Below are positions 49-57,000 of a DNA stretch of 64,000 nucleotides, one piece after another. This DNA comes from Dictyostelium discoideum (lineage: Eukaryota). Where the stretch lies: the NCBI GenBank assembly GCA_000004695.1, contig CM000150.2, positions 3,712,001-3,776,000 on the forward strand. Direction: 5' to 3'. How positions within the stretch are numbered: the first letter of the stretch is position 1; each line of letters opens with the position of its first letter. Under the pieces are notes generated by a model. That model had not been told where the DNA came from and searched no databases. It saw only the letters and a program-made list of their open reading frames with translations. The translations under genes and the position numbers were made by a program.

Positions 49-92
49 AAAATCAACTAATAAAATTTTTTTTTTTTTTAAAAAATATATAG

Positions 93-824
93 GAAGTAAG
101 ATTTGTACCAGGTGTTGGTTGGGGATGTGATAATTTAGATTACATCTTTTTAACAAGAGATTGGACATTCGATGAAAATCATATTGAATATAAAATTAAT
201 AAATATAAAGAAAGTGAATGTAAACCATGGTTAGTTATTTTCCCAGAGGGTACCGATATTGATGATGTTAAATTAAAAAAAAGTTGGGATGTAAGTTTTT
301 TAAAAAAAAAAAAAAAAAATAATAATAATAATAATAATAATTTAAAATATATTAATTATTATTATTTAAATTTAAAATTATAGTTTGCAGAAAAGAATGG
401 ATTCCCAAAATTTAATAATGTACTTTTACCAAGACATAAAGGTTTACATGCATGTGTTGAACCATTAAGAGATACAATTGATTGTGTATATGATTTAACA
501 ATCGGTTATGAAGGTAAACCAACCATTTTATCATGTATTAGTGGAACAAGTCCAAGAGTTGTAAATATTCATATTAAGAGATATTCACTTGATGAAATTC
601 CAAAGGATGAAAACCAACTTCAAAAATGGTTATTTAATCGTTATCATGAAAAAGATCAAATGTTACAATACTTAAAAGAAAATAAAACTTATTCAATGCC
701 ATATAGAATTCATAAACCTTGTAAGTATATTAATTTATAAATCATTATTATTCCAATTGGTTATTTTTTTTTTTCTTTTTTTTTTCTATTCTCTTTTTTT
801 TTTTTTTGTATATCAAATAATTAA

Positions 825-856
<32 letters not shown>

Positions 857-1063
857 ATAGCATTATCAATTTATGCATCAGCATTTTTATGGTTTTATTA
901 CTTTATGTTACCAATCACCAATTTACTTTTAATTTCTTCATTTACAAGAGTGTACTTTATCATAGCATTTGTTTATCACATTTTAAATTCAAAATATGAA
1001 CCACTTCGTAAATTAAGAGGATTACAAAATGCAATTTATTCAAAAAAAGAAAAATCTCATTAA
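93..1063 (+). CDS. Partial CDS (5' end lies outside the window): C-terminal portion of a lysophospholipid/1-acylglycerol-3-phosphate acyltransferase-like protein (LPLAT/AGPAT family)
   Basis: Three exons at 93..290, 384..720 and 861..1063. The introns are GTAAGT...TAG (291-383) and GTAAGT...TATAG (721-860), and the phases are consistent. The translation reads EVRFVPGVGWGCDNLDYIFLTRDWTFDENHIEYKINKYKESECKPWLVIFPEGTDIDDVKLKKSWD / FAEKNGFPKFNNVLLPRHKGLHACVEPLRDTIDCVYDLTIGYEGKPTILSCISGTSPRVVNIHIKRY... / SLSIYASAFLWFYYFMLPITNLLLISSF...KKEKSH*. FPEGT is acyltransferase motif III, and a hydrophobic C-terminal segment follows. The stop codon TAA is at 1061-1063. Confidence 0.65.
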
Positions 1064-1352
1064 ATAAATAAATATTGATTTGGAAATTAGGATTTTGTTT
1101 AGATAAAAAAAAAAAAAATAAAAATAAAAATCAAACCTTATCACTACCGATAATTAAATTAAAGTTTTAAATTATTTAAAGTTTTATTATTATATATATT
1201 TTTTTTTTATGTACAAATAATAAATTTGCAAAATAGCATTAGTTTGAATTTATAAATTATATTATTATTATTGTTGTTATTACAATTAATTATTATTACA
1301 ATTAATTATTATTACAATTAATTATTGTTATTATTAATTATTATTATTATTA

Positions 1353-2764: not shown

Positions 2765-5700
2765 TAATTACCTTTGTAGTTGAAAATAAAGTAACTGATA
2801 ATGAAATTGAAGTTTCAACATTTGGTTTTAATTCAATAGATTGAAAAGGTGAACTTGTTATTGAACTATCATCACCTTCTGGGAATAAAAATAATGCATA
2901 TAATGGTTCACTTAACTTATTTTTAAAAGTGATAGTATCATGACAAACTTCACCAAGATCGGATTTTCTACCATTCATTCCAAAATCACAAATATATGGT
3001 GATACTGATACAGGTAAATCTGGATCATTACAATGTTGGAATATTGTATCTGCAATTAAAACATGTGTTTGAGTATTGGTTCTATATTTACCACTTTGTC
3101 CATTTCTATTTTTATAAGTTTTTAAATAATGTTCTAATGGTATTTCATTGGTAACAGGGTCAAGTAAAATATCAATAATATTTAAAGGATTTTCAATAAA
3201 ATCACCATGAGCTAATGATGGAACTAAATGAGGACTTGGTATTTTACTTTTTTTATACTCGAAAAATTCTTGATCAAAAGTATTTCTTTCAAATTGTCTA
3301 ACAAATAATTCACCCTCTGCTTCAATTTTAATATTTCCACCTCGTATAATATTAATATAATCTTCAACATCATCTTCATTTAATTCTGCACCATCACTTG
3401 AATCATCATATTCATCACTATAATCTTCAAAAAATGGTTCATTATTATTTATAATTGGTTTAATTTCTAAATTTTCCATTTCTAATGTTACATTTGTTTG
3501 TAATATTGCTCCTGCTGCTGTTGTTGTTGTTGTTGTTGTTGTTTCTACTGTGGTTGGTTCTAAATTATTATTTTCTGATTGTGTTTGAATATCAGAATTT
3601 CTATTTACTGTTATTGATATATGATTTGATGATGATTGTTCTTGATTTGAATTTATAATTAATGGTGTTGATGGTACTGGTGATTTATTATTTGATGGTT
3701 TCTTTGAATATAGTTCAACACCAAAAACAGCTATTTCAAGTCTTCTTCTTTTTTTATGTTTATAATATCTGGCACCAAAGAATACAATTAATATGGATAA
3801 TAAAACAAGTACTGTAACACAAATTGGAACAATTATTGGTAATAGATTTATTTTTTCAACTGGTATTGGATATTCAATTACAAGTGATGAATAAATTGCC
3901 ATTGATGTTAAGTATGTATTACCTCTTGTTGCAAATGAAATATTTATATTTTCCAATGAGTTGATATTATCGAAATTGAATGTTAAATTTTTGAAAATTG
4001 GTGCTGAATTACTCTCTAATGGTTCCAATAAGAATACTGGTTGATTTTCAATATAAATTGATAATGGTGTTGGTTGATCATCAATTGGTTGATGTATAAA
4101 AAATAATTGAATTTGATAATACTTTGTTTCACTATCAATTCTTGTTGTTATAGTTACTAATTCATTTGAATTAATTGATGTTATACCATTTAAAAATAAT
4201 TCATTAAGGTCATTTGATATATTTAATTTTGGTAAATTTGTTATATATTTTATATTATTTGAAATTGTACAATTATTGCTATTATCATTACTACTAATAC
4301 TACAACCTTTTTTGAATGAATTACCATCAACTGAAATTATTCCATTTTCAGTTGAGTTTTCCATTGACCAACCTGAATAAAATGAATAATTACTAAATAT
4401 TGTAATCTTTGGAAAATTGATAATATACATTATTTCTGAATCTCCTACATTCTTTAATTTCACTGTTACTTTTAAATTTACTGAACCATCATTTTTAAAT
4501 GTTAATGGAAATTTACACTCTTTATTTACACTCTCTGATATAGCAGATGATGTTATTGTTTCATTATCTGATTCGAGTTCACAAGTAATACGACTAATTA
4601 CTGGTGATATTATTACAAGTTTTACTATTAAATCTAATTTTCCACCAACTGGTATTTGATATTGTGAAGTTGGAAAAATGGAATCTACTAGAATAAATTC
4701 ATCAACATTTAAAAGTTCATAGAGGTATGGCACAATCGAAGAACCATAGATTTGATTATTTTGAAGTTGAAAATCATCGATATAAAAGCTTGAGTTTTTA
4801 ATTATGACAGCTGATGATTTAATACCATTATCACCTAATGATGGTGTTGTTGATGAACCAAAAAATGAATCATAAATATCCAACCTTTTAACTTGACCTG
4901 TCAATTTAAAATTATTAACACCAATAATATTTTTTAAAACTAAACCACTTCCTTTTAAATTTACAATGATTTTAGAAGAAATAGTTGAATCTTTAATTGT
5001 AAAAAAAGTATTCTTTAATTCTTCATCACTATTAACTATTAAAAAGTAATCTACTGGATTAATTGAAATTGGATTTACTAAGTTTTTACTAAAATCGATT
5101 GGCTCTTGTGAAAGACTTGGAACAACTATTGAATTAATATCGCATGGAGCGAAGCAATCTTTATCGAAACCTGTAACATTCTCTCTTGATATGAAATTAA
5201 AATTGTATAAAATTTTTTGGCCATTGAATATATCATTAGTTGAGAATATGTTTGGCGAAAGTGAATAGATACCATTGCCTTCATGTCCATAATCCATAAA
5301 TGCTGGTGATGTAGGAAATTCATTTGGTAAAACTAATGAGAAATAATTATTTGATGATTCTATATATTCTGTACCATACTGAGCAATCATACTTGAACCT
5401 GCTGTGCCCACTATTAAATTACCTGATATATTAACATTTGATTGAAAAAATACTAAAGATGATCTCGACGAACCAGTGTTTCCAATGATTACACTATTCT
5501 TTATTGTTACACTATTTGAAAACTCTATATATAGTGAGTTTCTAAATCTTTGATTTTTACCAATTATTATATCTGTCACATTATTTGGATTATCTGATGA
5601 GAAGGTTAGCTTTGTATCATCATATTCTTTATTTGAAGTTTTACCAATTGAATCAAGTAAGTAGTTTTCAATATGTAGTTTAGTATCACCTGTTATATAA

Positions 5701-10655: not shown

Positions 10656-11385
10656 TTGTTTAATAAATTAAAAATTTTTTATTCTCTTGATTTTTAGAAT
10701 ACTAAATAATTTGTATCCGCCTTATCTTTTTCAGTTTGCCGCAGGCGTAATATAAATGACTTAATAATAATAAGAATAGTAATCAACCAACCACTTTTTC
10801 TAAATAAAAAATTATATTTTTTTTTTTAATCATATTAATTAAATAATTACTTGGGGTGGCAAACCCACCAATGCTGAAATTTTTACATACAAACCTCAGA
10901 AAAGAATATTATGTGACAAGAGAAAAATTTTTAATGAGCGGGCAAGTGTAAATACAGATTTTTTTATTTTTTTTTATTTTTTTTTTATTTTTTTATTTTT
11001 TACAGTTGGGGTGTTAAATTAAATTCCAAAAAAAAAAAAAAATAAAAAACGAAAAAAAAAAAAGAAATATCTTTATCAAAAAATTTTTTTTTATTTTTAT
11101 TTTTATTTTTTTTTCGTTTTTTATTTTTTATTTTTTTTTATTATTTCTTTATTTTTATTATTTCTTTATTTTTTTTATTTAAAATTTTGCCAAAACAAAG
11201 CAAACATACAGTTTGCTAATTTTATTTGGCTTTTTTTCTTCACAACATGAGTTAACAAAATTAATTCTGGTGCGATCAAATTAATCGACACTTAATAAAA
11301 TTTATTTATTTAATTTTAAAAATCTTTATTTGTTTTTATTATTTATTATTATTTTTTTTTTGTTATTTTTAATTTTATTTATCTA

Positions 11386-15938
<4,553 letters not shown>

Positions 15939-16334
15939 TATTTTAAAATTTATAAATGTGGTATAACAAAAACACACATCCAAAAGGTTTGTTAGGATTT
16001 GTAGGATTTGATGGAAAAAAAAAAAAAAAAAAAAAAATGATAAAAAAAAAGAAAAAAAAAGAAAAAAAAAAATTAAAAAAAAAAATTGAAAAAAAAGAAA
16101 AAAAAAAAAATCAATTTTTTTAGAATCTTTGTGATTGAATCCTGAAAAAAAAAAAAAAATAAAAAAAAAAAAATGTGATTAAATCAAAATAAAAAAAAAA
16201 AAATTAAAAATAAAATTAACAAAAAAAAAAAAAAAAAAATTTAATTTGTGTGATAAAATATTTATGTCGAAATTTTTTTTGGTTGTGAAATTACTAACAA
16301 AAAGGATATTTTTTTTTTTTTTTTTTATTTTTTA

Positions 16335-16925
16335 ATAAAAATAGATTTTATTTTTATTTTGATTGAATCCAATTTGATAAATCTTGATTAAAAGCTTTGA
16401 ACCAATTTGAATTAATTGTAACCATTTCTAAATCTTGTTTAATTGAACGATCAGCAATTGGAACTGGATGATCTTTGAAAAAGTTGACGACTTCATTGTA
16501 TTGAGAATCATCCATTTTAGAGGTGAGACAACTACCAATGATACGACCAAACAAAGGAGAGTTATTAAAGGTTTCATCGATTTGATTAAAGTTTTTGGTA
16601 AAGTAAGCCCAAGCGAATTGACGAACACGATTTGGAAGGGTAAAGAAAACCATATAACTATCTTGACTTCTAACGGATGGAGATAAAGCGAAATTGAGGG
16701 CTTTTTCAACCAATTCCTCTTTTGGAGCCAAAGCAAGTACCAAAAGGTAAGAATTCTTTTCAGCAACTAAAGAAGATTTAAGATATTGATCAATGATGAT
16801 TTGTTGATCAGCTTCACCACCATTCTTTACGATTGTAGCAAGTACTGTAGAACGAATATCTGATGGTAAACTTGAAGAGTCTGCTTTGAAAGCTTCGAAT
16901 CTTTTCTTACATTCAGCAACGATCT
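16335..16925 (-). pseudogene. Inverted partial duplicate (gene fragment) of the last roughly 590 bp of the M1 aminopeptidase gene, including its stop codon and 14 bp of its 3' flank
   Basis: The reverse complement of 16335-16925 matches 21513-22100 almost base for base. The encoded peptide ...KRFEAFKADSSSLPSDIRSTVLATIVKNGGEADQQIIIDQYLKSSLVAEKNSYLLVLALAPKEELVEKALNFALSPSVRSQDSYMVFFTLPNRVRQFAWAYFTKNFNQIDETFNNSPLFGRIIGSCLTSKMDDSQYNEVVNFFKDHPVPIADRSIKQDLEMVTINSNWFKAFNQDLSNWIQSK* differs from the parent at only a few residues (F/L, D/N, N/K). There is no upstream exon or start codon. Similarity ends abruptly at 16925 on one side and shortly after the stop codon on the other. Confidence 0.8.
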
Positions 16926-18329
16926 GAACTAATTTGACTCTCTAAATTATCAATTTCTTGTCTCTTTATTGAAAATTGATAAAATATATTTGAATGTGGT
17001 TGTTCTTGAATTAATTGATTTGATATTTTATATTTTTCATCTACATCTTCTGTGAATATAATTCAATTTCTAAATTATCTCTTAAAATTTTATTAACATC
17101 TATAATCTATTATCACTACTACCTTGACTATTACTATTAACACCACCACTACTACTACTACTATTTATAATAATTAAAAAAATTATTAAAATTGAATATA
17201 TAAATAATTATTAAATATTATCATATTTTATATATATATATATTTATATAAAATTTTTATATGACTTTTTTTTTTTTTAAAAAAATTATTTTTTTAATTT
17301 TATTATTTTAATCTATTATTATTATTTTACTATTTTATTTTTGTATATACACAATAATATTATTAATTGTATAAATATTATATGTATTTTAAAAAAAAAA
17401 AAAAAAAAAATGAAATAGAAAAAATATAAAAGTATAACCCCCTTAAAATTTAGAATTTTTATTTTTTTAATTTTTTTTTTTTTTTATTTTTTTAATATAG
17501 ACAATCAAAAAGAAAACTAGAAATATTATAAACTACAACAATATCCTACAAAATCAATAATAATATCATAATAATCAACATTAACAATCAATTGGTTGAT
17601 ATTATTCATATTTAAAATAGGGGTTAAATAAATAAAAAAAAATTATATGGACATGTTGTGTTGGTGAGTTATCGTATGAACATGGGTGCTTGCGACCGCC
17701 AAGACTAAAGGATAAAAAAAGAATTTTATTCGGGTCATAATAAAAAGTGGTATTTAACACTGTTTTGGTATATCGTAAATAGCTTTGTGGTTCACAAAAA
17801 TTATAACAAATATAGCCTATCCTGTAGAGAATTTCGTAAAACTATTTTGGAAGATTTGAATGGTCACCAAACCCTTGGGGCGTACTTTCTAAGTTCAACT
17901 TTTTCAATTTTTTCTACTTTTTTTCAGATTTTTCAAAGAAAAAATAATGAAAAAAATTAATAAATATAAATAATATTCATTTTAATTACCAAACAATCTA
18001 ATTATTATTTTTATTTGTAGTTTTTAAAAAAAAAACCGTTAAAAAACTTTTCTGATTTTTTCCTATTTTCGATAAATATTTCTTTAAAAAAGATATTATT
18101 ATTTATGTTAATTGGGGTGTTAAATATTTCTTTAAAAATTTTTTTTTTGAAGTTGTGTTTTTTTAATTAAATAAATAAATTCATAATTATTTCCTTCTAT
18201 TCATAAAAAAAAATTGTAATTGATTATATGAATTGATCGATTTCCTTTTATTAATAAAAAAAACTCATAATTATCTACTTCTATTAATAAAAAAAAAAAA
18301 TAAATTCATAATTATTTCCTTCTTTTAAT

Positions 18330-18930
18330 ATAAAAAATGGTAAACTCTTGACCAACAAAAAAGCAAAAGACTCGACCAAATTTAATGTTGTATTCTCTTG
18401 GATTAGAACCTGTATAGATAACTTATTATATTTAATTAATGAAAATGAAGAACTTAAAGAAAAACGTACTAAAGATAAACATATAATTTGGGTAGGTGTT
18501 TAATATTAAATTAATAACATTATTTTTTTTTATTTTTTTTTGTGTTAGACTCTCTTATATTGGAAACAATATCTTCCAATTAATGAGATATGTGTTACTT
18601 TTGGTATTAGTCCAAAAACATTTCAAAATCACTATAGTCAAACCATTGAGTTGTATGCAAGGAAATAATGGAAAGAGATATGATAAACTTGTTGGATCAG
18701 TTAGTTTTTTAAAACATCCTATATCTAATGTGCTTTATCGTGCAATTGCTGCTGACTCTACATCTATTGATATTGAAACTCCCGCTGATTACCAAATCCA
18801 AAAAAAATACTATTCTGGTAAAAGCAAAAGTCATGTGGTCAAATTATTCGTAAACATGATAGTTTTCCAATCTTGGGTAATTATTTTAAATAACCTCGCT
18901 ACCTCTTACTTTAATACTTTGTTATTTTAT
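18330..18930 (+). mobile_element. Decayed Harbinger/PIF-like (DDE_Tnp_4, HARBI1-like) transposase remnant
   Basis: The six-frame ORF 18496..19044 and the upstream in-frame stretch translate to ...NGKRYDKLVGSVSFLKHPISNVLYRAIAADSTSIDIETPADYQIQKKYYSGKSKSHVVKLFVNMIVFQSW. This aligns with the Harbinger core (G)AIDGTHI.I..P.......Y.NRKG.HS.N.Q.V.D, but the DGTH catalytic motif has degenerated to DSTS, and the ORF runs into poly-Y/F/I low complexity, so it is truncated. It lies in the spacer between the inverted aminopeptidase duplicates. Confidence 0.4.
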
Positions 18931-19262
18931 TATTATTATTATTTTTTTTTTTTTATTATTATAATAATTATATATTATTGGTATTTTTTATTTATAAAAA
19001 TTAAAATCTGGGCAATAAAAAAAAAAAATAAAAAAAAAAAATAAAATAAATAAAAAAAAATAAAAAAATTTTTATTTTTTTTTTTGTGATCATCAATTTA
19101 ATTTGTTTTAATTTATTTTATTTTTTTTAATTTTTTTTTTTTTAATTTTTTTTTTTTTAATTTTTTAAAATGAAAAAAATAAATTTAATTTCGATTATTA
19201 TTTTTATAATTTCACTTGTTTATTTTAATTTTATACATATAAATAATAATATAGTTGAAAAA

Positions 19263-20170
19263 ATGTGTGATCATAAACATTTAGTTGACAAAGTAGATAG
19301 ATTAGTATTACCAGATAATATCGTACCAAGTAAATACGATTTACATCTTAGACCAAATTTAAAGGATTTTGTATTCAGCGGCAAAGTTGACATTACAATC
19401 AATATTGTTAAACCAACCAAAAAAATCATTATCCATTCAATTGACATTGAAATTCAATCAGTAAAGATCTTAAATCAACAAGCTACTTCCGTTACCTACT
19501 ATGAACCAGAAGAAGTTGCAATTTTAGAATTCCAAGATGAATTACCAGTTACAGAAAATACAATTCTCTCCATTGATTTCACTGGTATTTTAAATGACAA
19601 ATTAAAAGGTTTCTATCGTTCAAAATATGTTGTCAATGGTGAAGATCGTTATATTGGTACCACTCAATTCGAAGCCACTGATGCTCGTCGTGCTTTCCCA
19701 TGTTTTGATGAACCTGCTTTAAAATCTTTCTTTAATATTAAAATCACTATTTCATCTCATTTAACTGCTCTTTCAAATATGGATACAACTTCTGTAATTG
19801 AAAATAATGATGGTACTAAAACCTTTATGTAAGTGTATTATATATATTATATTGAGAAAAAAAAAAAAAAAAAAGTACTAATTTTTTTTTTTTTCTTTAT
19901 TTTTTTTTTTAAAATTAAAAGTTTTGAACAAACTCCAAAGATGAGTACTTATATTGTTGCATTTATAGTTGGTGAATTCGATCATATTGAGTCACATACT
20001 AAAGAAGGTATTAGAGTTAGAGTTTACAAATGTGTTGGTAATAAAGAATCAAGTGAATTTGCTTTAGATGTTGCCACCAAATCATTATCTTATTTCATTG
20101 ATTACTTTGGTATTCCATATCCATTAAATAAATGTGATCACATTGCCATTCCAGTACGTATTTTTTATTA

Positions 20171-20229
<59 letters not shown>

Positions 20230-22083
20230 TAATCATATTCTTCTTAATAATAATATGTTAATTCCTTTAATAATATATAATGATACCATTACCAATCACC
20301 ATCACCATAGGACTTCTCCTTTGGAGCTATGGAAAACTGGGGTTTAATTACTTATCGTGAATCAATTTTATTAACATCAGATAAAACTACTCTTCGTACT
20401 AAACAAAGAATTGCTAATGTAATTGGTCATGAATTAGCACATCAATGGTTTGGTAATTTAGTAACAATGGAATGGTGGAGTCAATTATGGTTAAATGAAG
20501 GTTTTGCAACATTTATGGGATATTTATCAACTCATCATTTATTCCCAGAATGGGAAGTTTGGAATGATTTCTCTGATTGTTATAGAAATGGTGCACTTCG
20601 TTTAGATGCTTTAGAGAATTCACATGCAATTGAAGTACCAGTACGTCTTTCGTCTCAAATTTCAGAAATTTTTGATGCCATTTCTTATAACAAAGGTTCA
20701 TGTGTAATTCAAATGTTAGAGAGTCGTTTCGGTGAATCATTTAGAAAAGGTCTTCATCATTATTTGGATACTCATTCCTATAAGAATACCAATACCGATG
20801 ATCTTTGGGCTTCAATTTCATTGATTAGTGGTGTTGATGTTAAATCATTCATTGATTCATTCACAAAGTATCCAGGTTATCCAGTAGTTTCATTCACTCC
20901 AACTTCAACTGAAGGTACCTTTGAATTATCTCAAAAGAAATTTAGATTACAAGGTTCTGAGAAATCTGATGATCCAATTTGGAATTGTTTCATTAGATTC
21001 CAAACTGGTAATGCTGGTCAACATGAATTCATCTTGGAGAAGAAATCCGATACCGTAACAATTCCAAACTTTAAAAATGGTGATTGGATTAAACCAAACT
21101 ATGGTCAAACTGGTTATTTCCGTATTGCCTACTCACCTGAAACTATCAAAGCATTGGTTCCAAAGATTAAATCAATGGAAATTCCAACTCCAGATCGTTT
21201 AGGTTTATTATCAGATGTTTTCAATCTTTGCAAGGCACACACTTCTTCCATCTCTGCCTATATGGATTTAGTTTTGGCTTTTGAAGATGAAAAGGAAAGT
21301 AATGTTTGGGATTTCATTATCGATAGTCTTGGTTCTATTCAAACTTTAATTGAAGATCAACCATACTCAAGTAGATTCAATGAAATCTTTGTTCAACTTT
21401 TGAAACCACTTTCAAAACGTTTAGGTTTCGAGCCAACCAAAGGTGAACCATCTTCAGATACCTTGTTAAGAGATAAAGTAAACACTAAATTGGGTATGTT
21501 GGGTGATGCTGATATCGTTGCTGAATGTAAGAAAAGATTCGAAGCTTTCAAAGCAGACTCTTCAAGTTTACCATCAGATATTCGTTCTACAGTACTTGCT
21601 ACAATCGTAAAGAATGGTGGTGAAGCTGATCAACAAATCATCATTGATCAATATCTTAAATCTTCTTTAGTCGCTGAAAAGAATTCTTACCTTTTGGTAC
21701 TTGCTTTGGCTCCAAAAGAGGAATTGGTTGAAAAAGCCCTCAATTTCGCTTTATCTCCATCCGTTAGAAGTCAAGATAGTTATATGGTTTTCTTTACCCT
21801 CCCAAATCGTGTTCGTCAATTCGCTTGGGCTTACCTCACCAAAAACTTTAATCAAATCAACGAAACATTTAAAAACTCTCCTTTGTTTGGTCGTATCATT
21901 GGTAGTTGTCTCACCTCTAAAATGGATGATTCTCAATACAATGAAGTCGTCAACTTTTTCAAAGATCATCCAGTTCCAATTGCTGATCGTTCAATTAAAC
22001 AAGATTTAGAAATGGTTACAATTAATTCAAATTGGTTCAAAGCTTTTAATCAAGATTTATCAAATTGGATTCAATCAAAATAA
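19263..22083 (+). CDS. M1-family zinc aminopeptidase (puromycin-sensitive aminopeptidase-like), about 856 aa
   Basis: Three exons: 19263..19828 (donor GTAAGT), 19922..20153 (donor GTACGT) and 20311..22083; total 2571 nt. Motifs: GFYRS, FEATDARRAFPCFDEP, MSTYIVAFIVGEF, the GAMENWGLITYRE exopeptidase motif, and the HELAHQWFGNLVTMEWW...LWLNEGFA zinc-binding site (HEXXH-18-E). There is an alternative in-frame upstream start codon at 19170 (MKKINLISIIIFIISLVYFNF...) that would add a hydrophobic N-terminus; which start is used is unresolved. Confidence 0.85.
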
Positions 22084-22306
22084 AAATAAAATCTCTTACA
22101 ATGAAAGATCTTTGTTTTAATAATTGATAGTGATAAAAAAAAATGAGACGAAAACTAAAATAAACATCAAATTATTGTTTTCCTTTTTAAAACACAAATT
22201 TTATTTTTTTAAATTTATTGTTTTGGTTAAAAAAAAAATTGCTTTTTTTTTTTGTTTTTGCGTTCATCCAGAAGTATAGATTTATTTTTGGTAACATATG
22301 AATGTA

Positions 22307-22341
<35 letters not shown>

Positions 22342-22476
22342 TTATTCATTTATAAAAAAAAAAAAAATAATATTTAAAAAATGAAAAATTTTATGTTTTT
22401 TTTTTTTTTTGTGCAACAATTCTGTTTTTTAGGACTTGTTTCGTTAAATTAAAAAATAATATAAAAAAATTAGAAA

Positions 22477-27519: not shown

Positions 27520-28260
27520 CACTCAAAAATACACAAAATGATATAATAATGGTATTAAAATGTGAAATTTTCTTTGCTGTGATAAAAAATAATAAAAAAA
27601 AGTATGACCTATTAATTTTTATTATTGTTTTTTAAATAAACCTTAAGCTGTACTTATTAAGAAAGGCTGTTCCAGTGCTGTTTTTCGGCTAAATTTAATT
27701 CTCTTCTTTTTAGGTAGGTTACCAAAATCCTATTCTTTTACTTTTTTTTAAAAAATATACTATTGAATATTGTATTGGTAGATTAATAATACAGCACAGC
27801 AAAGAAAATCCAGCATTAAAATGACATTTAAAATAAAATGTAATTTAAATGATATTTTTAATATCATTTAAATACCATTAAAAATTAAATGATATTTTTA
27901 ATATCATTTAAATACCATTAAAAATCAAATGTCATTTAAATTTTATTTAAATGATATTATAATTAATAATATAGTTAAAATATAATTAGTAATATAATTA
28001 ATAATATAATTTAAATTACATTTACCATTAAAATGATCATTAAAATGAAAATTAATATTAATATTTTAAATGATATTATATTGTTAATTTTTATATAATT
28101 TAAAATTTAATTAGTAATAAAATTAATAATATAATTTAAATTACATTTACCATTAAAATGACAATTAAAATGAAATTTTAAGGGAAATTTAAAGTTAAAT
28201 TAAAAATTTCATTATTAAGAATATTTAAATGTTAACAAATTTGTTCTAAATTGTTTCATT
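27520..28260. repeat. Copy of an unnamed interspersed repeat with internal direct sub-repeats; the same element occurs inverted at 45790-46740
   Basis: The block 27600-27830 (gtatgacctattaattttt...ggctgttccagtgctgttt...ggtaggttaccaaaatcctattctttt...cagcacagcaaagaaaatccagcattaaaatgacatttaaaataaaatgtaatttaaatgatat...) is the reverse complement of 46240-46420 and 46640-46720. Internal sub-repeats (aaatgatatttttaatatcatttaaataccattaaaaat, twice) are shared. Confidence 0.7.
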
Positions 28261-41939: not shown

Positions 41940-42165
41940 CTATTAACAAAATAATTTTTTTTCATCAAACAATTAATGATATTAGTAGAAAATTAATATC
42001 TATCTTTTTTTAATTTATTTATTTTTATTTATTTATTTATTTTTTATCTTTATAACTAATTTCAATAATAATAAATTTATTTAAATTTTTAATATTTTTA
42101 ATTATTCAATACACTTTTTTTAAATTTTTAATAATTTTAAATTTTTAATATTTTTATTAATATCG

Positions 42166-42480
42166 ATTACATTGTAGTTGGTGGCGTCCATGCTGAGTAT
42201 GCAATAAGGGTAATGCTTTCAATTCTTGGCATTGAATTTGATGAAATTAAGAACAAACATCAAATGAAAATAATTAGAACCAAATTTCAAAAAATAATGG
42301 TTCAATTAAAATAATTATTTTTTATTTTACCAATCATCCCTCAGACACACACAGGGATCCAATAGTTGATATTATTAAATTTAGATTATTGATAGAATAC
42401 TTTAATAATAATTATAATAATAATAATGATAATAATATAATAGAATTTGATCATTCACTAATGAAACATTACTTTGGAGA
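42166..42480 (+). pseudogene. Fragment (copy 1) of a dispersed degenerate paralogue family (VVGG-HAEYAIRV ... FYF-HPSD...DPIVDIIKF-LLVEY...)
   Basis: About 90% identical to 50082-50400. It starts abruptly at gattacattgtagttggtggcgtccatgc and ends ...NNIIEFDHSLMKHYFGEA*. Relative to copy 2 it has a frameshift at caaaaaataatgg. Confidence 0.6.
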
Positions 42481-45789: not shown

Positions 45790-46740
45790 CGGGATAATAC
45801 CTAAAAGAAGAGAATTAAATTTAGCCAGAAGATTTATTAAAAAAAATAATAATAATTAATAAGTCATACTTTTTTTTTCATTATTTATGTTAGTAATACA
45901 TTGGCTCACAGCAAAGAAAATATCACATTTTCAATACCATAAAAATTAAAATTCTTTTTTACTGTAACATTTAATTTTCTTAAAAATGAAATTTTTAATT
46001 TTTAATTTACTTTAAAGTTTCATTTTAATGGTCATTTTAATGGTAAATGTAATTTAAATTATATTATTAATTATATTACTAATTATAATTTAACTAATAT
46101 TAATTATAATATCATTTAAATAACATTTAAATGACATTTAATTTTTAATGGTATTTAAATGATATTAAAAATATCATTTAAATTACATTTTATTTTAAAT
46201 GTCATTTTAATGCTGGATTTTCTTTGCTGTGCTGTATTATTAATCTACCAATACAATATTCAATAGTATATTTTTTAAAAAAAAGTAAAAGAATAGGATT
46301 TTGGTAACCTACCTAAAAAGAAGAGAATTAAATTTAACCAGAACGCGCTGGAACAGCCTTTCTTAATAAGTACAGCTAAAGGTTTATTTAAAAAACAATA
46401 ATAAAAATTAATAGGTCATACTTTTTTTTATTATTTTTTATCACAGCAAAGAAAATTTCACATTTTAATACCATTTAAATTACATTTAAATGTTCCAGTG
46501 AAAATGAAATTTAAATCTAGTTTAAAGTTTCATTTTAATGGTCATTTTAATGGTAAATGTAATTTAAATAATATTAATTACAATTTAAATGACATTTAAT
46601 TTTTAATGGTATTTAAATGATATTAAAACCATTTAAACTGCATTTTATTTTAAATGTCATTTTAATGCTGGATTTTCTTTGCTGTTCTGCATTATTTAAT
46701 CTACCAATACAATATTAAATAGTTTATTTTTTTTTTAAAA
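45790..46740. repeat. Two tandem copies, inverted relative to 27520-28260, of the unnamed interspersed repeat
   Basis: The units run approximately 45830-46330 and 46380-46740. Each contains cacagcaaagaaaat(a/t)tcacatttt...tttcattttaatggtcattttaatggtaaatgtaatttaaat...gctggattttctttgctgt(g/t)ctg(t/c)attat and ggtaacctacctaaaaagaagagaattaaatttaaccagaacgcgctggaacagcctttcttaataagtacagc. Confidence 0.7.
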
Positions 46741-48743: not shown

Positions 48744-48792
<49 letters not shown>

Positions 48793-49224
48793 CAACAATT
48801 TAATTTTAAAATGAATTTATTGATAAATAGAGCAATCAAAAATAAACAAAATGATATGAAAAATAAAAAAATTAATGTAATTATATATTTTTTTTAAATT
48901 TTTTTTTTTTTAACTAAAATTATTTTTTCAGAATTTAATTATTTTTCATTTTAACAACGAGAGGGAATATATTTAAATAAAATAATAGATATTAAAAAAA
49001 CCAAAAATTGGTTGAGTTGGAATATTTTTTATTTATTTTAATGTCAAATTTGAATGTTTGAATAAATAAAATTAAAAAAAAAAAAAAAAAAACAATTTAA
49101 TCAATTTTTTATTAGTTTTTATTTAAAATCTATTTTTTTTTAATAAAATATCTTCCCTACTCTTTTTTCTTTAAAATAAAAATAATTACAAAAAACATAT
49201 GTTTAAAAATTAAATTCTAAAAAT

Positions 49225-49699: not shown

Positions 49700-50900
49700 T
49701 TTCCATTCATAAGAGAAATGTGCAAAAACTTCATTTCAAATCTTAAATCCAAAACCTTTTCAACATTTTCATCTATCTTTGGTTATTTTCAAAATAATAA
49801 AAATAATAATAATAATAATAATAATAAATTAATATTAGTATACCAAATACCAAAAAGTACAAAGAATATACTTTTAGATAATAATGGTAGACAAGCATTC
49901 ACCATAAAATATTTTTTTCAATTTCTATAAATATATTGGTGATGTATATGATAGAGAAAACACAATCATAAGTCATTTATTAATTTTCATTCACAAATCA
50001 ATTTCTGGTGTTCATGAACCTATCAATGGTAACCATTTATATATTTTAATAATTGCTTTTTTATTTATAATTTAATTTTGCAGACGATTACGTTGTAGTT
50101 GGTGGCGTCCATGCCGAGTATGCAATAAGGGTAATTCTTTCAATTCTTGGCATTGAATTTGATGAAATTAAGAACAATCATCAAATGAAAATTATTAGAA
50201 CTAAATTTCAAAAAAATAATGGTTCAATTAAAATAATTATTTTTTATTTTACCAATCATCCCTCAGACACACACAGGGATCCAATAGTTGATATTATTAA
50301 ATTTATATTATTGGTAGAATACTTTAATAATAATAATTGCAATAATAATAATATTATTATAAAATTAGATCAATCACTGTTGAAATCATTTATCAAAAAT
50401 TATCAAATTTTGTTCAAAAACCAAGTAGTGGTTGTGTGATGATTTAATAAATCATATTAATTTTACTGATAATGATGAATGCAATCATAGTTTCGTATAT
50501 TCACCAATCATCAATTTTAACATTTTCGAATCAATTTTAAAACCAACAGATTCAAAAATAACAAGTATTGATGATTCAACTTCCAGTGATTACCAATTTT
50601 AAAAAATGGAATTTTTAAAATTTCATTCAATAATATTATAACTTCAATTAAAACAACTTCAAGCAAATCACCGTCAACTAAATGGAATAACAAAGCAATC
50701 AAATATCACCCAAATAATGAAACAAAGCTTGCTACCAATGCTATATCTAGCATTTGAATATTTAGCAACTTTTATTTCGCCATTTTGGTCTGTCGAAAGA
50801 TCTTTCGACAAATTAAAAGGGCAAAACAAAAGTTATCAACTATTCAAAGAATAGACATAGTATCGATGCAAATTTAACTTTAGTTGATCTTGTCAAATTA
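49700..50900 (+). pseudogene. Copy 2 of the dispersed degenerate paralogue family; it shows frameshifts and premature stops
   Basis: The ORFs 49718..49930 and 50185..50439 are in different frames. The stretch ...YIGDVYDRENTIISHLLIFIHKSISGVHEPING, an intron-like segment, then DYVVVGGVHAEYAIRVILSILGIEFDEIKNNHQMKIIRTKFQKNNGSIKIIIFYFTNHPSDTHRDPIVDIIKFILLVEYF... is collinear with copy 3 (55965-56500). Its 3' part (50440-50900) is a decayed equivalent of copy 3's Cys-rich and zinc-finger region. Confidence 0.6.
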
Positions 50901-55839: not shown

Positions 55840-57000
55840 AAAAGAATCTATTTTAAACTTAAAATCAAATAAATTTTCAACATTTTCATCAGTTTTTCAA
55901 AGTTTTCATCATAATTCCAATAAAAGGATAATTTTTTTAAACCAATCAAAAAAATAAAGATTGGATGAAATTATATTACTATGGTTACGAACAATCTTCA
56001 GTTATAAAAGAAGTATTTGAATTTTACAAATATATTGGTGATGAATATGAAAGAGAAAACACAATAGTAATGGATCTTTTATTTTTTATTGGTGGAACCA
56101 ACTCTGGTATTCAAGATTCAATCAATGGTAATCACATTTACATTTTAATGATAGTTTTTTTATTCTTAATAGAATTGGCCGATTATTTTATCGTGGTTGG
56201 TGGTGCTCACGCTCAATAAGCAATTAAGTTAATATTATCAATTTTGAAAATTGAAGTTGAACAAATTCAAAACAATCATAAAATGAAATTTATAAGAATC
56301 AAATTTCAAAGCAATAATGGTTCATTTAAATCAATCATTTTTTATTTCTCCAGCTATCCATCAGATTTAAGTATAGATCCAGTCATTGATATCATTAAAT
56401 TTAGATTATTGGTAGAATACTTGATTTATCAAATAATAATAATAATCAAAATAATAATAATAATATCATTGAATTTGAAGAATCATTAATTAATTCAGTA
56501 TATCAAAGTTTATTTCAATTTGTACAAAAACCAAGTATTAGTTGCGTTAATTGTGGTGCTTATGAAAGTGTAACCAATGATTGCTGTCACAGATTCGTAT
56601 ATTCACCAATCTTTGAATTTAATATTTTCAAATCAATTTAAAAATCAACACCTACAACTACTACAACAACAACAACTGATAATTCAATTTCTAATCAATT
56701 GGATTCAACAATATTAAAAAATGGTATTTTTAAAATTTCATTCAATAACCTTGAAAAACCATCACCAAAAGAACAATTTTTAGCACAATATCCAAGATTA
56801 AAGATTTCATCAATTTTTAATACAATCAAATCTTCATTTCAATCAACAGATAATAAGCATTATTGTGGTTATTTAAAATGTAATTCAAGTTTTGATGATG
56901 TTGACAGGTTATCACTCCACATGGTGAAAGAACATCCATGTGATGAAACACCACCTGGTTCAAAATTCTTTATTATTAGAGGTGGATCAAACAATTGAAC
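55840..57000 (+). pseudogene. Copy 3, the most complete, of the dispersed paralogue family. It ends in a C2H2-like zinc finger. An in-frame stop and a microsatellite frameshift suggest a pseudogene or sequence variant
   Basis: The ORFs 55965..56219, 56244..56489 and 56699..56998 are collinear with copy 2. The stretch ...VVGGAHAQ*AIKLILSIL has TAA where copies 1 and 2 have TAT (Tyr). A +/-1 frameshift sits inside an (ATA/AAT)n run. Downstream are SISCVNCGAYESVTNDCCHRFVYSPIFEF and ...HYCGYLKCNSSFDDVDRLSLHMVKEHPCDE (C-x4-C...H-x4-H). Confidence 0.55.

What the first reader, a model, noticed from the sequence alone, without database searches (positions are those of the whole stretch)
16335..22100. 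590-bp inverted duplication of the aminopeptidase 3' end, forming inverted repeats around the rest of the gene
The reverse complement of 16335-16925 is more than 97% identical to 21513-22100, which covers the last about 190 codons, the stop codon and 14 bp of 3' flank of the M1 aminopeptidase gene. The two copies are inverted and 4.6 kb apart, so the 5' two-thirds of the functional gene (19263-21513) sits inside an inverted-repeat bracket. Recombination between the arms would invert the segment and break the gene. The few substitutions argue for a recent event. The sharp boundaries, one inside an exon, suggest a template-switch or transposon-mediated capture rather than a whole-gene duplication.
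Basis: seen in the sequence. Interest (0 to 1): 0.6.

Follow-up and report, generated by a model that had tools for sequence, protein, structure and literature searches.

The report
Relic gene end beside inverted aminopeptidase
The 0.6-kb inverted repeat is real, but the "extra" copy is the old 3' end of a Dictyostelium aminopeptidase gene left at its ancestral site after the working gene copy was inverted in the NC4 laboratory lineage, which makes it an ordinary rearrangement scar kept similar to the gene by gene conversion.

Summary
Window 16343-16923 (-) and 21514-22094 (+) are inverted copies: 581 bp, 8 mismatches, no gaps, 4590 nt apart. The same structure is present in an independent Nanopore/Illumina assembly, so it is not an artefact.

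The window is D. discoideum AX4 chromosome 1. The right arm is the 3' end of the 856-aa aminopeptidase Q55CY7. The left arm is already annotated as hypothetical gene DDB_G0269852.

- **Ancestral state.** D. citrinum and D. dimigraforme have the order COX6B(-), peptidase(+), kinase-like gene K, with the peptidase 3' end abutting K. D. firmibasis shows the same peptidase orientation relative to COX6B.
- **AX4 state.** The peptidase is inverted. The left arm sits next to K and keeps the ancestral 3' flank, so it is the relic at the original site.
- **Other strains.** Two wild D. discoideum strains and two cryptic-species strains also carry K-side relics of different lengths, but their gene is not inverted. 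The duplication is therefore older than the inversion.
- **Similarity of the arms.** The 98.6% identity reflects arm-to-arm gene conversion, not recency.
- **Breakpoint.** A Harbinger-type transposase remnant ends at one inversion breakpoint.
- **Recombination.** Crossing-over between the arms would rebuild an intact gene, not break it.

This is a known kind of feature and of modest interest.

The parts
16343..16923 (-). Left arm: relic of the aminopeptidase 3' end at the ancestral site. It has 189 codons (16357-16923), a stop codon (16354-16356) and 11 nt of flank. It forms most of exon 2 of the annotated hypothetical gene DDB_G0269852.
   Evidence: (ERAP1_C, E=1.4e-41)
21514..22094 (+). Right arm: 3' end of the functional gene. 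It now ends in a novel junction 11 nt after the stop codon.
19263..22083 (+). Functional M1 aminopeptidase gene (Q55CY7/XP_646344, 856 aa). Exons are 19263-19828, 19922-20153 and 20311-22083. It is inverted relative to D. citrinum, D. dimigraforme and D. firmibasis.
15992..16342 (-). Ancestral 3' flank of the peptidase gene, contiguous with gene K. It is shared with the K-side relics of the other strains, and its first ~35 nt are shared with the 3' flanks of their functional genes.
11382..15991 (-). Gene K (kinase-domain protein in the orthologues), the ancestral downstream neighbour of the peptidase gene.
16924..17391 (-). Block Y: a foreign, coding-like fragment with an apparent intron, joined to the relic. 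The same block is joined to the relic in a wild D. discoideum strain (L004 9405-9880), which has about 415 bp more at the junction. Its source was not found.
17392..18070 (.). Unassigned filler DNA with no match in any fetched locus. It contains the predicted exon 1 of DDB_G0269852 (17550-17609), which has a GTAGGA donor and a 608-nt intron.
18071..19062 (+). Degenerate Harbinger/PIF-type (DDE_Tnp_4) transposase remnant. It has a frameshift and a ~140-bp deletion. Its right end abuts the inversion breakpoint on the promoter side.
19067..19262 (+). Ancestral upstream (promoter) region 'n' of the peptidase gene, inverted together with the gene.
22095..22453 (.). Region 'c': the COX6B-proximal half of the ancestral COX6B-peptidase intergenic region. 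In AX4 it is fused to the gene's 3' end (junction ...AAATAAAATCT|CTTACAATG).
21801..21873 (+). A 73-bp patch holding 7 of the 8 arm-to-arm differences. Five are changes specific to the AX4 gene arm and two are specific to the relic arm.
   Evidence: P about 1e-4

Best explanation
The inverted repeat is a rearrangement scar, not a device. The steps below are marked as shown or inferred.

1. Ancestral order (shown). The order was COX6B(-), peptidase(+), K(+), with the peptidase 3' end directly abutting K.

2. Old duplication (inferred from the strain comparison). Before the D. discoideum complex diversified, the peptidase gene, or at least its large last exon, was duplicated locally in direct orientation. 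The COX6B-side copy stayed functional. The K-side copy decayed from its 5' side, leaving relics of different lengths in different lineages. In AX4 the relic is the last 189 codons, fused to a foreign fragment (Y).

3. Inversion in the NC4 lineage (AX4 and the AX2-like assembly). That the gene is inverted, and where the breaks lie, is shown. The functional copy was inverted by breaks in the T-rich COX6B-peptidase intergenic region and 11 nt after the stop codon. That the breaks were rejoined by end-joining is inferred. The promoter-side breakpoint is now joined exactly to the end of a ~1-kb Harbinger-type transposon remnant. This suggests a transposon-end break or captured filler DNA. The inversion turned the two direct copies of the 3' end into the present inverted repeat.

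4. Gene conversion (inferred from shared derived bases). The two arms have since exchanged sequence, which keeps them 98.6% identical and keeps the relic's reading frame open.

5. Present role (inferred). The relic most likely has no function of its own. The repeat acts only as a substrate for homologous recombination. A crossover would flip the 4.6-kb segment back to the ancestral orientation and rebuild an intact gene with three amino-acid changes and the ancestral 3' flank.
For: - Real and independently assembled. The source paper PMC12745789 describes de novo Nanopore plus Illumina assemblies.
- Identity of the parts. The window encodes AX4 proteins P0129 (the gene) and P0125 (DDB_G0269852) at 100%.
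- Ancestral order and orientation. D. citrinum L009 and D. dimigraforme L013 have both flanks descending in window coordinates, the gene ascending, and K directly after the gene. D. firmibasis L006 has the same gene orientation relative to COX6B and Rac.
- The relic arm keeps the ancestral flank ATTTTTATTAAAAAATAAAA.... This flank is shared with the K-side relics of all strains and with the functional genes of the other strains. The AX4 gene's flank switches after AAATCT to sequence that lies upstream of the gene in the other strains.
- K-side relics exist where the gene is not inverted. L004 (wild D. discoideum) has the same Y block and a relic starting at gene position 21463 with an internal deletion. 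L005 has 85 bp. L012 has 20436-22094 with gaps.
- The wild type cannot derive from the AX4 type, because it keeps intact c-n adjacency.
- Gene conversion. At 21588, 21591, 21912 and 21981 both AX4 arms share a derived base, while the wild strain's gene and its K-side relic keep the ancestral base. Site 21630 behaves likewise, but the wild relic is deleted there. The AX4 arms differ by 1.4%, compared with 2.4-3.4% between either arm and the wild strain's gene or relic. Seven of the eight differences fall in 73 bp (P about 1e-4).
- Transposon remnant. It is 74% identical in protein to P0132, which passes the Pfam DDE_Tnp_4 threshold. It is 84-92% identical in DNA to copies on other contigs. Homology ends at about 19062, next to the breakpoint.
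- Weak gene model. Two annotation pipelines give different 5' exons (P0125 vs P0001), with a GTAGGA donor and a 608-nt intron.
Against: - The full order of events cannot be reconstructed. The wild strains have further nested duplications and inversions of their own.
- The shared ~35-nt flank breakpoint of the wild and cryptic-species genes lies in a poly-A run and cannot be shown to be one event.
- Strains of one species recombine sexually, so 'before the split' is an approximation.
- The five clustered changes in the AX4 gene arm are not explained by simple conversion between the two arms.
- I have no expression data, so a function for DDB_G0269852 is not excluded.
- No read-level data were available to test for inversion isomers.
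- L001 being AX2-214 is an inference from its near-identity to the window.
- No terminal inverted repeats or target-site duplication could be defined for the transposon remnant.
Confidence: 0.75

Rival explanations
1. One-step origin. A single inversion with a staggered break at the 3' side (the Ranz/Drosophila 'isochromatid' model) created the inversion and the 0.6-kb inverted duplication at the same time in the AX4 lineage.
For: The gene is inverted relative to three outgroups. One arm is at the end of the inverted segment and the other is at the ancestral site, which is the signature described in PMC1885836. The arms are 98.6% identical.
Against: Strains whose gene is not inverted already carry K-side relics. 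One of them has the same Y-fragment junction as AX4. About 2.1 kb of unrelated DNA lies between the relic and the other end of the inverted segment. The relic in L012 reaches back to about 20436.
Confidence: 0.12
2. Transposon-mediated capture. A Harbinger-type element (or another element) picked up an inverted fragment of the gene's 3' end and inserted it nearby. The 16.3-16.9 kb arm would then be the captured copy, or the captured copy lay upstream and a later crossover between the arms swapped them.
For: A DDE_Tnp_4 remnant lies inside the bracket with its end at a breakpoint, next to patchwork DNA that includes a foreign gene fragment.
Against: The 16.3-16.9 kb arm is contiguous with the ancestral 3' flank and gene K, so it was not moved. 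The remnant is truncated and degenerate, and it is absent from the wild strains that carry the relic. No terminal inverted repeats or target-site duplication bracket the fragment, though the ends are homopolymer-rich, so that test is inconclusive. The variant with upstream insertion followed by flipping conflicts with the wild strains, which have the Y-relic junction at K together with intact upstream intergenic regions.
Confidence: 0.05
3. The left arm is a functional gene (DDB_G0269852) encoding a stand-alone ERAP1_C-domain protein, or the repeat is a programmed invertible switch that gives the peptidase alternative C-termini or 3' UTRs.
For: The 195-codon reading frame is intact and the locus is annotated as a gene. 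Both inversion isomers would encode a full-length enzyme.
Against: There is no in-frame ATG at the start of the arm. The 5' exons differ between annotations and have weak splice signals. The orthologous relics are deleted, frameshifted or reduced to 85 bp in other strains. Two of the relic's three own changes are non-synonymous. No recombinase gene is present; the only transposase-like sequence is degenerate. AX4 and the second NC4-lineage assembly have the same orientation. No paper mentions the gene.
Confidence: 0.05
4. Assembly artefact (a chimeric or collapsed contig).
For: None beyond the general difficulty of assembling AT-rich Dictyostelium DNA.
Against: The same structure and the same 8 differences are present in an independent long-read assembly. 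Related relics are present in four other assemblies.
Confidence: 0.01

Closest known systems
Inverted duplications at inversion breakpoints (staggered-break model; Ranz et al. 2007, PMC1885836)
   Same: A unique-sequence segment containing part of a gene is present in inverted copies at or near the two ends of a segment that is inverted relative to sister species. One copy is a non-functional gene relic at the ancestral site.
   Different: The duplication seems to predate the inversion, because relics occur in strains without the inversion. In addition, 2.1 kb of unrelated DNA (a transposon remnant and a foreign fragment) separates the relic from the inverted segment.
Arm-to-arm gene conversion in palindromes and inverted repeats (for example human Y-chromosome palindromes and plastid inverted repeats; from general knowledge)
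   Same: The arms are more alike than their age predicts. They share derived substitutions, and their differences are confined to a small patch.
   Different: The arms are short (0.58 kb). One arm is the working end of a gene and the other is a relic. Conversion is inferred from five genomes, not measured.
Unprocessed (duplicated) pseudogenes / gene relics
   Same: It is a truncated genomic copy that lacks the catalytic domains and its own start, and its orthologues in other strains are decaying.
   Different: In AX4 the reading frame is still open, which I attribute to conversion. The relic occupies the original locus, while the functional copy is the rearranged one.
Gene-fragment capture by DNA transposons (Pack-MULE-type transduplication; from general knowledge)
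   Same: Gene fragments lie next to a DNA-transposon remnant of the PIF/Harbinger superfamily.
   Different: The fragment was not moved, and no element termini bracket it.
Local structural hotspots in Dictyostelium genomes (the tgrB/C locus, PMC12745789)
   Same: Repeated duplications, inversions and transposon insertions are confined to a few tens of kilobases and differ between closely related strains.
   Different: This is a different locus and gene family on chromosome 1, with no evidence of diversifying selection.

Membership tests
Inversion with breakpoint inverted duplication (staggered-break type) | The segment is inverted relative to the arrangement in outgroup species. | tested here: met
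   D. citrinum, D. dimigraforme and D. firmibasis all have COX6B(-) peptidase(+); AX4 has the gene reversed between collinear flanks.
Inversion with breakpoint inverted duplication (staggered-break type) | The duplicated sequence is single-copy at the locus in the outgroups. | tested here: met
   Only one copy of the 3' end was found in the 19-23 kb loci of L006, L009 and L013. Whole genomes were not searched.
Inversion with breakpoint inverted duplication (staggered-break type) | The two inverted copies directly abut the two ends of the inverted segment. | tested here: not met
   The right arm is the end of the inverted segment, but 2.1 kb of unrelated DNA (16924-19066) lies between the left arm and the other end.
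Inversion with breakpoint inverted duplication (staggered-break type) | The duplication arose in the same event as the inversion. | tested here: not met
   K-side relics are present in strains whose gene is not inverted, and one shares AX4's Y junction.
Unprocessed pseudogene / gene relic | A truncated genomic copy of a parent gene that lacks essential domains. | tested here: met
   It has only ERAP1_C profile positions 145-316 and no M1 catalytic or N-terminal domains.
Unprocessed pseudogene / gene relic | Disabling mutations or lack of constraint. | tested here: inconclusive
   The AX4 copy has an open frame with only 3 changes of its own, 2 of them non-synonymous. The orthologous relics in other strains carry deletions and frameshifts or are reduced to 85 bp.
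Unprocessed pseudogene / gene relic | Not expressed as a functional mRNA or protein. | not testable with these tools
   No expression data were available, and no paper mentions DDB_G0269852.
Inverted repeat homogenised by gene conversion | The arms share derived substitutions that are absent from orthologous copies in a lineage that already had both copies. | tested here: met
   Sites 21588, 21591, 21912 and 21981 (and 21630, where the wild relic is deleted): both AX4 arms are derived, while the wild strain's gene and relic are ancestral.
Inverted repeat homogenised by gene conversion | Patchy distribution of the remaining differences. | tested here: met
   Seven of the eight differences fall within 73 of 581 bp; simulation gives P about 1e-4.
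Transposon-mediated gene-fragment capture | The fragment lies at a non-ancestral site inside an element bounded by terminal repeats and a target-site duplication. | tested here: not met
   The fragment is contiguous with the ancestral flank and K. No bracketing termini were identified, though the ends are homopolymer-rich, so the repeat test itself is weak.
PIF/Harbinger transposon (for the 18071-19062 remnant) | DDE_Tnp_4 transposase homology. | tested here: met
   The window translation hits only HTH_Tnp_4, below threshold (E=0.007). It is 74% identical to P0132 and 67% to P0133, both of which pass the Pfam DDE_Tnp_4 threshold.
PIF/Harbinger transposon (for the 18071-19062 remnant) | A complete element: full DDE triad, terminal inverted repeats and a 3-bp target-site duplication. 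| tested here: not met
   Only the N-terminal half of the domain is present, with a frameshift and a ~140-bp deletion that removes the second Asp region. All relatives found are 107-284 aa.
Programmed invertible DNA switch | A site-specific recombinase and both orientations present in a population. | tested here: inconclusive
   No recombinase gene is present at 15-24 kb. Two NC4-lineage assemblies have the same orientation. Read-level heterogeneity could not be tested.

The most novel reading that the evidence does not exclude
The 0.58-kb arms are an active flip-flop. Homologous recombination between them would recurrently invert the 4.6-kb segment in D. discoideum populations or cultures. 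The aminopeptidase would then alternate between two 3' ends that differ by three residues (L/F, N/D, K/N) and by their 3' UTRs. This locus would be a recurrent inversion and duplication hotspot across the D. discoideum complex, comparable to the tgr hotspot.
Probability: 0.12. Interest if true: 0.5.

Novelty: new member of a known kind. Interest (0 to 1): 0.33.

Why it matters
- **Annotation.** DDB_G0269852 (Q55CY8) is most likely a gene relic and should be flagged as a pseudogene.
- **Reference genome.** The model-organism reference (NC4 lineage) carries a derived micro-inversion of a housekeeping-type peptidase that two tropical wild D. discoideum isolates lack.
- **Dating pitfall.** The case shows how a partial duplicate can look recent because of gene conversion.
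- **Experimental use.** It offers a natural 0.6-kb inverted-repeat substrate for studying mitotic recombination and conversion in Dictyostelium.
- **Genome dynamics.** It adds a second example, besides tgr, of a small region that rearranges differently in almost every sequenced strain, with DNA-transposon remnants at the junctions.
- **Scope.** None of this changes current understanding of mechanisms.

Tried and rejected
- Bacterial-type promoter/terminator scan. The counts equal the shuffled expectation, and the scan is irrelevant for a eukaryote.
- tRNA and Rfam scans of 14-25 kb. Nothing was found, so there is no tRNA-targeted retroelement explanation.
- Source of the Y fragment. Pfam found nothing. 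An exhaustive HMMER search with the 45-aa translation returned only the fragment itself and spurious bacterial Cna-B repeat proteins. tblastn against all fetched loci found it only in L001 and L004.
- A second Harbinger-like motif that I thought I saw at about 17650-17900 was not supported by tblastn.
- Conversion from the paralogous aminopeptidase as the source of the five clustered changes. The paralogue proteins P0010 and P0011 have F, not L, at the changed residue, so there is no support for this idea.
- Deriving the wild-strain arrangement from the AX4 arrangement, or from an upstream-insertion-then-flip model. Both were rejected because the wild strains keep intact COX6B-peptidase intergenic junctions.
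- Literature searches. There were no hits for DDB_G0269852 and none specific to Harbinger elements in Dictyostelium.
- Terminal repeats and target duplications. They were not resolvable because the ends are homopolymer runs.

Full report
**1. The observation.**
The repeat finder gives arms 16331-16923 and 21514-22106: 593 nt, 98% complementary, 4590 nt apart. BLASTN of the window against itself gives a gap-free 581-bp match, 16343-16923 vs 22094-21514, with 8 mismatches (98.6%, bit score 1029). It is the strongest repeat in the window. In the base-level alignment the similarity starts abruptly at gene position 21514. It ends 11 nt after the TAA stop, at 22094, beyond which only scattered AT matches remain.

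The left arm keeps the aminopeptidase frame open for 189 codons plus the stop codon. An in-frame stop lies six codons upstream of the arm, and there is no ATG at the arm's start. Pfam places the arm in the second half of the ERAP1_C domain.

**2. Identity of the locus.**
The window is Dictyostelium discoideum AX4 chromosome 1.
- The gene, with exons 19263-19828, 19922-20153 and 20311-22083, translates exactly to XP_646344/Q55CY7, a 'puromycin-sensitive aminopeptidase-like protein' of 856 aa.
- The left arm, together with a predicted 20-codon exon at 17609-17550, translates exactly to XP_646343/Q55CY8, the hypothetical protein DDB_G0269852.

So the copy is already annotated. I found no paper that mentions it. 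A second annotation pipeline predicts different 5' exons for the same arm (P0001). The dictyBase model needs a GTAGGA donor and a 608-nt intron. The gene model is therefore weak.

**3. Not an artefact.**
Looking up the neighbouring single-exon Rac gene retrieved L001 (GCA_054883475.1, a 3.2-Mb contig). L001 is collinear with window 13299-33974 at 99.7-99.9% identity, differing almost only in homopolymer lengths. It holds both arms with the same differences.

That assembly belongs to a set of de novo Nanopore plus Illumina genomes (PMC12745789). From its near-identity to the window, it is most likely the AX2-214 lab strain. This assignment is my inference.

**4. Which arm is the original.**
- In D. 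citrinum (L009) and D. dimigraforme (L013) the order is COX6B(-), peptidase(+), then directly gene K(+). In window coordinates both flanks run descending while the gene runs ascending.
- D. firmibasis (L006) has the same gene orientation relative to Rac and COX6B, although K is not nearby there.
- Hence the AX4 gene is inverted, and the ancestral 3' end of the gene lay next to K, exactly where the left arm now lies.

The flanks confirm this. After ...AAATAAAATCT the left arm continues ATTTTTATTAAAAAATAAAA.... So do the K-side relics of all strains and the functional genes of the wild and cryptic-species strains. The AX4 gene instead continues CTTACAATGAAAGATC.... That sequence is the COX6B-proximal half of the ancestral COX6B-peptidase intergenic region. 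The wild strain reads ...CTTTCATTGTAA|T-rich|GTGATACCAATTT..., and AX4 reads ...CTTTCATTGTAAG|AGATTTTATTT (the gene end). The promoter-proximal half starts at about window 19067.

**5. What lies between.**
Window 16924-19066 is absent from the ancestral arrangement. It has three parts.

(a) 16924-17391 is a coding-like fragment with an apparent intron, which I call Y. The same block is joined to the K-side relic in a wild D. discoideum strain (L004 9405-9880). There the block continues for about 365 bp more as a Cys-rich open frame, and the relic begins at gene position 21463. AX4 therefore has a secondary deletion of about 415 bp. Its junction (TTCAG|ATCGTT) is compatible with ATC microhomology. 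The donor of Y was not found.

(b) 17392-18070 is unassigned.

(c) 18071-19062 is a degenerate PIF/Harbinger-type transposase remnant.
- Its translation is 74% identical to P0132 and 67% to P0133, both of which pass Pfam's DDE_Tnp_4 threshold.
- It is 84-92% identical in DNA to copies on other contigs (L010, L011).
- It carries a frameshift and a ~140-bp deletion.
- Its homology to the closest copy ends at about 19062, immediately next to the breakpoint.

**6. Other strains.**
- **Wild D. discoideum (L007+L004, L008).** The full gene is in the ancestral orientation, and it is bracketed by inverted copies, at least 2.6 kb long, of the upstream region plus exons 1-2. Retrotransposons and duplicated blocks separate it from K. 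A relic with a ~200-bp internal deletion sits at K.
- **Cryptic-species strains.** One keeps only 85 bp of the relic at K, plus scrambled fragments (L005). The other keeps a relic spanning 20436-21167 and 21327-22094, next to a tandemly triplicated K (L012).

Because these strains keep intact COX6B-peptidase intergenic junctions, they cannot derive from the AX4 arrangement. The K-side relic, and in D. discoideum its junction to Y, therefore predates the AX4 inversion. The simplest reading is an old local duplication of the gene or its large exon, decay of the K-side copy, and then inversion of the functional copy in the NC4 lineage.

**7. Why the arms are so similar.**
Within the arms, AX4 gene and AX4 relic differ at 8 of 581 sites (1.4%). 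Each differs from the wild strain's gene or relic at 2.4-3.4% of sites. At 21588, 21591, 21912 and 21981 both AX4 arms carry a derived base. The wild strain's gene, its K-side relic, the cryptic-species gene and (except at 21912, where D. citrinum also has the AX4 base) the outgroups carry another base. Site 21630 behaves the same way, but the wild relic is deleted there. Four or five parallel identical changes are implausible, so arm-to-arm gene conversion is the straightforward explanation.

Seven of the eight remaining differences lie in 73 bp (21801-21873; P about 1e-4 by simulation). Five of these are changes peculiar to the AX4 gene arm (four T>C and one C>A, giving F>L). Two are peculiar to the relic (N>D and K>N). 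The cluster in the gene arm is unexplained. The paralogous aminopeptidase is not an obvious donor.

**8. Consequences.**
A crossover between the arms would invert 16924-21513 and join the 5' two-thirds of the gene to the relic arm. That arm is an intact 189-codon end with a stop codon and the ancestral 3' flank. The gene would be rebuilt, not broken.

The relic itself shows no sign of independent function:
- It has no start codon of its own.
- Its gene models are inconsistent.
- Its orthologues in other strains are decayed.
- Two of its three own changes are non-synonymous.

Expression and read-level inversion heterogeneity could not be tested here.

**9. Comparison with known cases.**
The feature resembles the inverted duplications found at Drosophila inversion breakpoints (PMC1885836). 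It fails two defining points of that one-step model, because the duplication predates the inversion and extra DNA intervenes. It behaves like a small palindrome homogenised by conversion, and like an unprocessed pseudogene that happens to sit at the original locus. It is not a transposon-captured fragment, because it never moved, although a Harbinger-type remnant marks one breakpoint. I rate it a new member of a known kind. It is useful for annotation and as an example of a small rearrangement hotspot, and of modest general interest.

Noticed in passing
window 21801-21867: The functional gene arm carries five lineage-specific substitutions (four T>C and one C>A, causing F>L) within 67 bp. They are absent from the relic arm, and none is shared by all the other strains and outgroups. 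This could be a mutation cluster or a conversion tract from an unknown donor.
   Followed up: partly
window 18071-19062; L011 4563-5207(-) and 5768-6821(+); L010 5793-6884: There is a low-copy family of ~1-kb truncated Harbinger/PIF-type (DDE_Tnp_4) transposase remnants in D. discoideum, 84-92% identical in DNA. In L011 two copies lie head to head. I found no paper describing such elements in Dictyostelium.
   Followed up: partly
L007 3432-3571 and 12953-13092; L008 1602-1741 and 12921-13060; window 48761-48950: A ~140-bp dispersed repeat sits both in the COX6B-peptidase intergenic region and right after the ~35-nt 3' flank of the peptidase gene in the two wild D. discoideum strains. A 78% match lies elsewhere in the window. 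It may be a miniature mobile element at another breakpoint.
   Followed up: no
L012 1-17950: In one cryptic-species strain the K gene region is tandemly triplicated, with peptidase relic fragments between the units.
   Followed up: partly
L007 3643-6284 vs L004 2622-1: In a wild D. discoideum strain the full peptidase gene lies between inverted copies, at least 2.6 kb long and 86-97% identical, of its own upstream region plus exons 1-2 fused to other DNA. This is a second, larger inverted-repeat bracket at the same locus.
   Followed up: partly
window 27548-27987 vs 46046-46475; 42164-42470 vs 50085-50390; 49904-50633 vs 56004-56748: The window contains further repeats: an inverted pair at 92%, a direct pair at 92%, and a diverged direct pair at 73%. 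Their nature was not examined.
   Followed up: no
window 3873-4199 vs 13577-13900; window 14384-14506: A K-like paralogous segment (83.5% identical) lies about 9.7 kb from gene K. K also contains a long AAT/ATT microsatellite that encodes a run of about 40 asparagines.
   Followed up: no
L006 13234-14433 vs window 89-1069: In D. firmibasis the gene downstream of the peptidase is an acyltransferase, which lies about 15 kb away (window 89-1069) in AX4. So the K side of the locus has also been rearranged between species.
   Followed up: no
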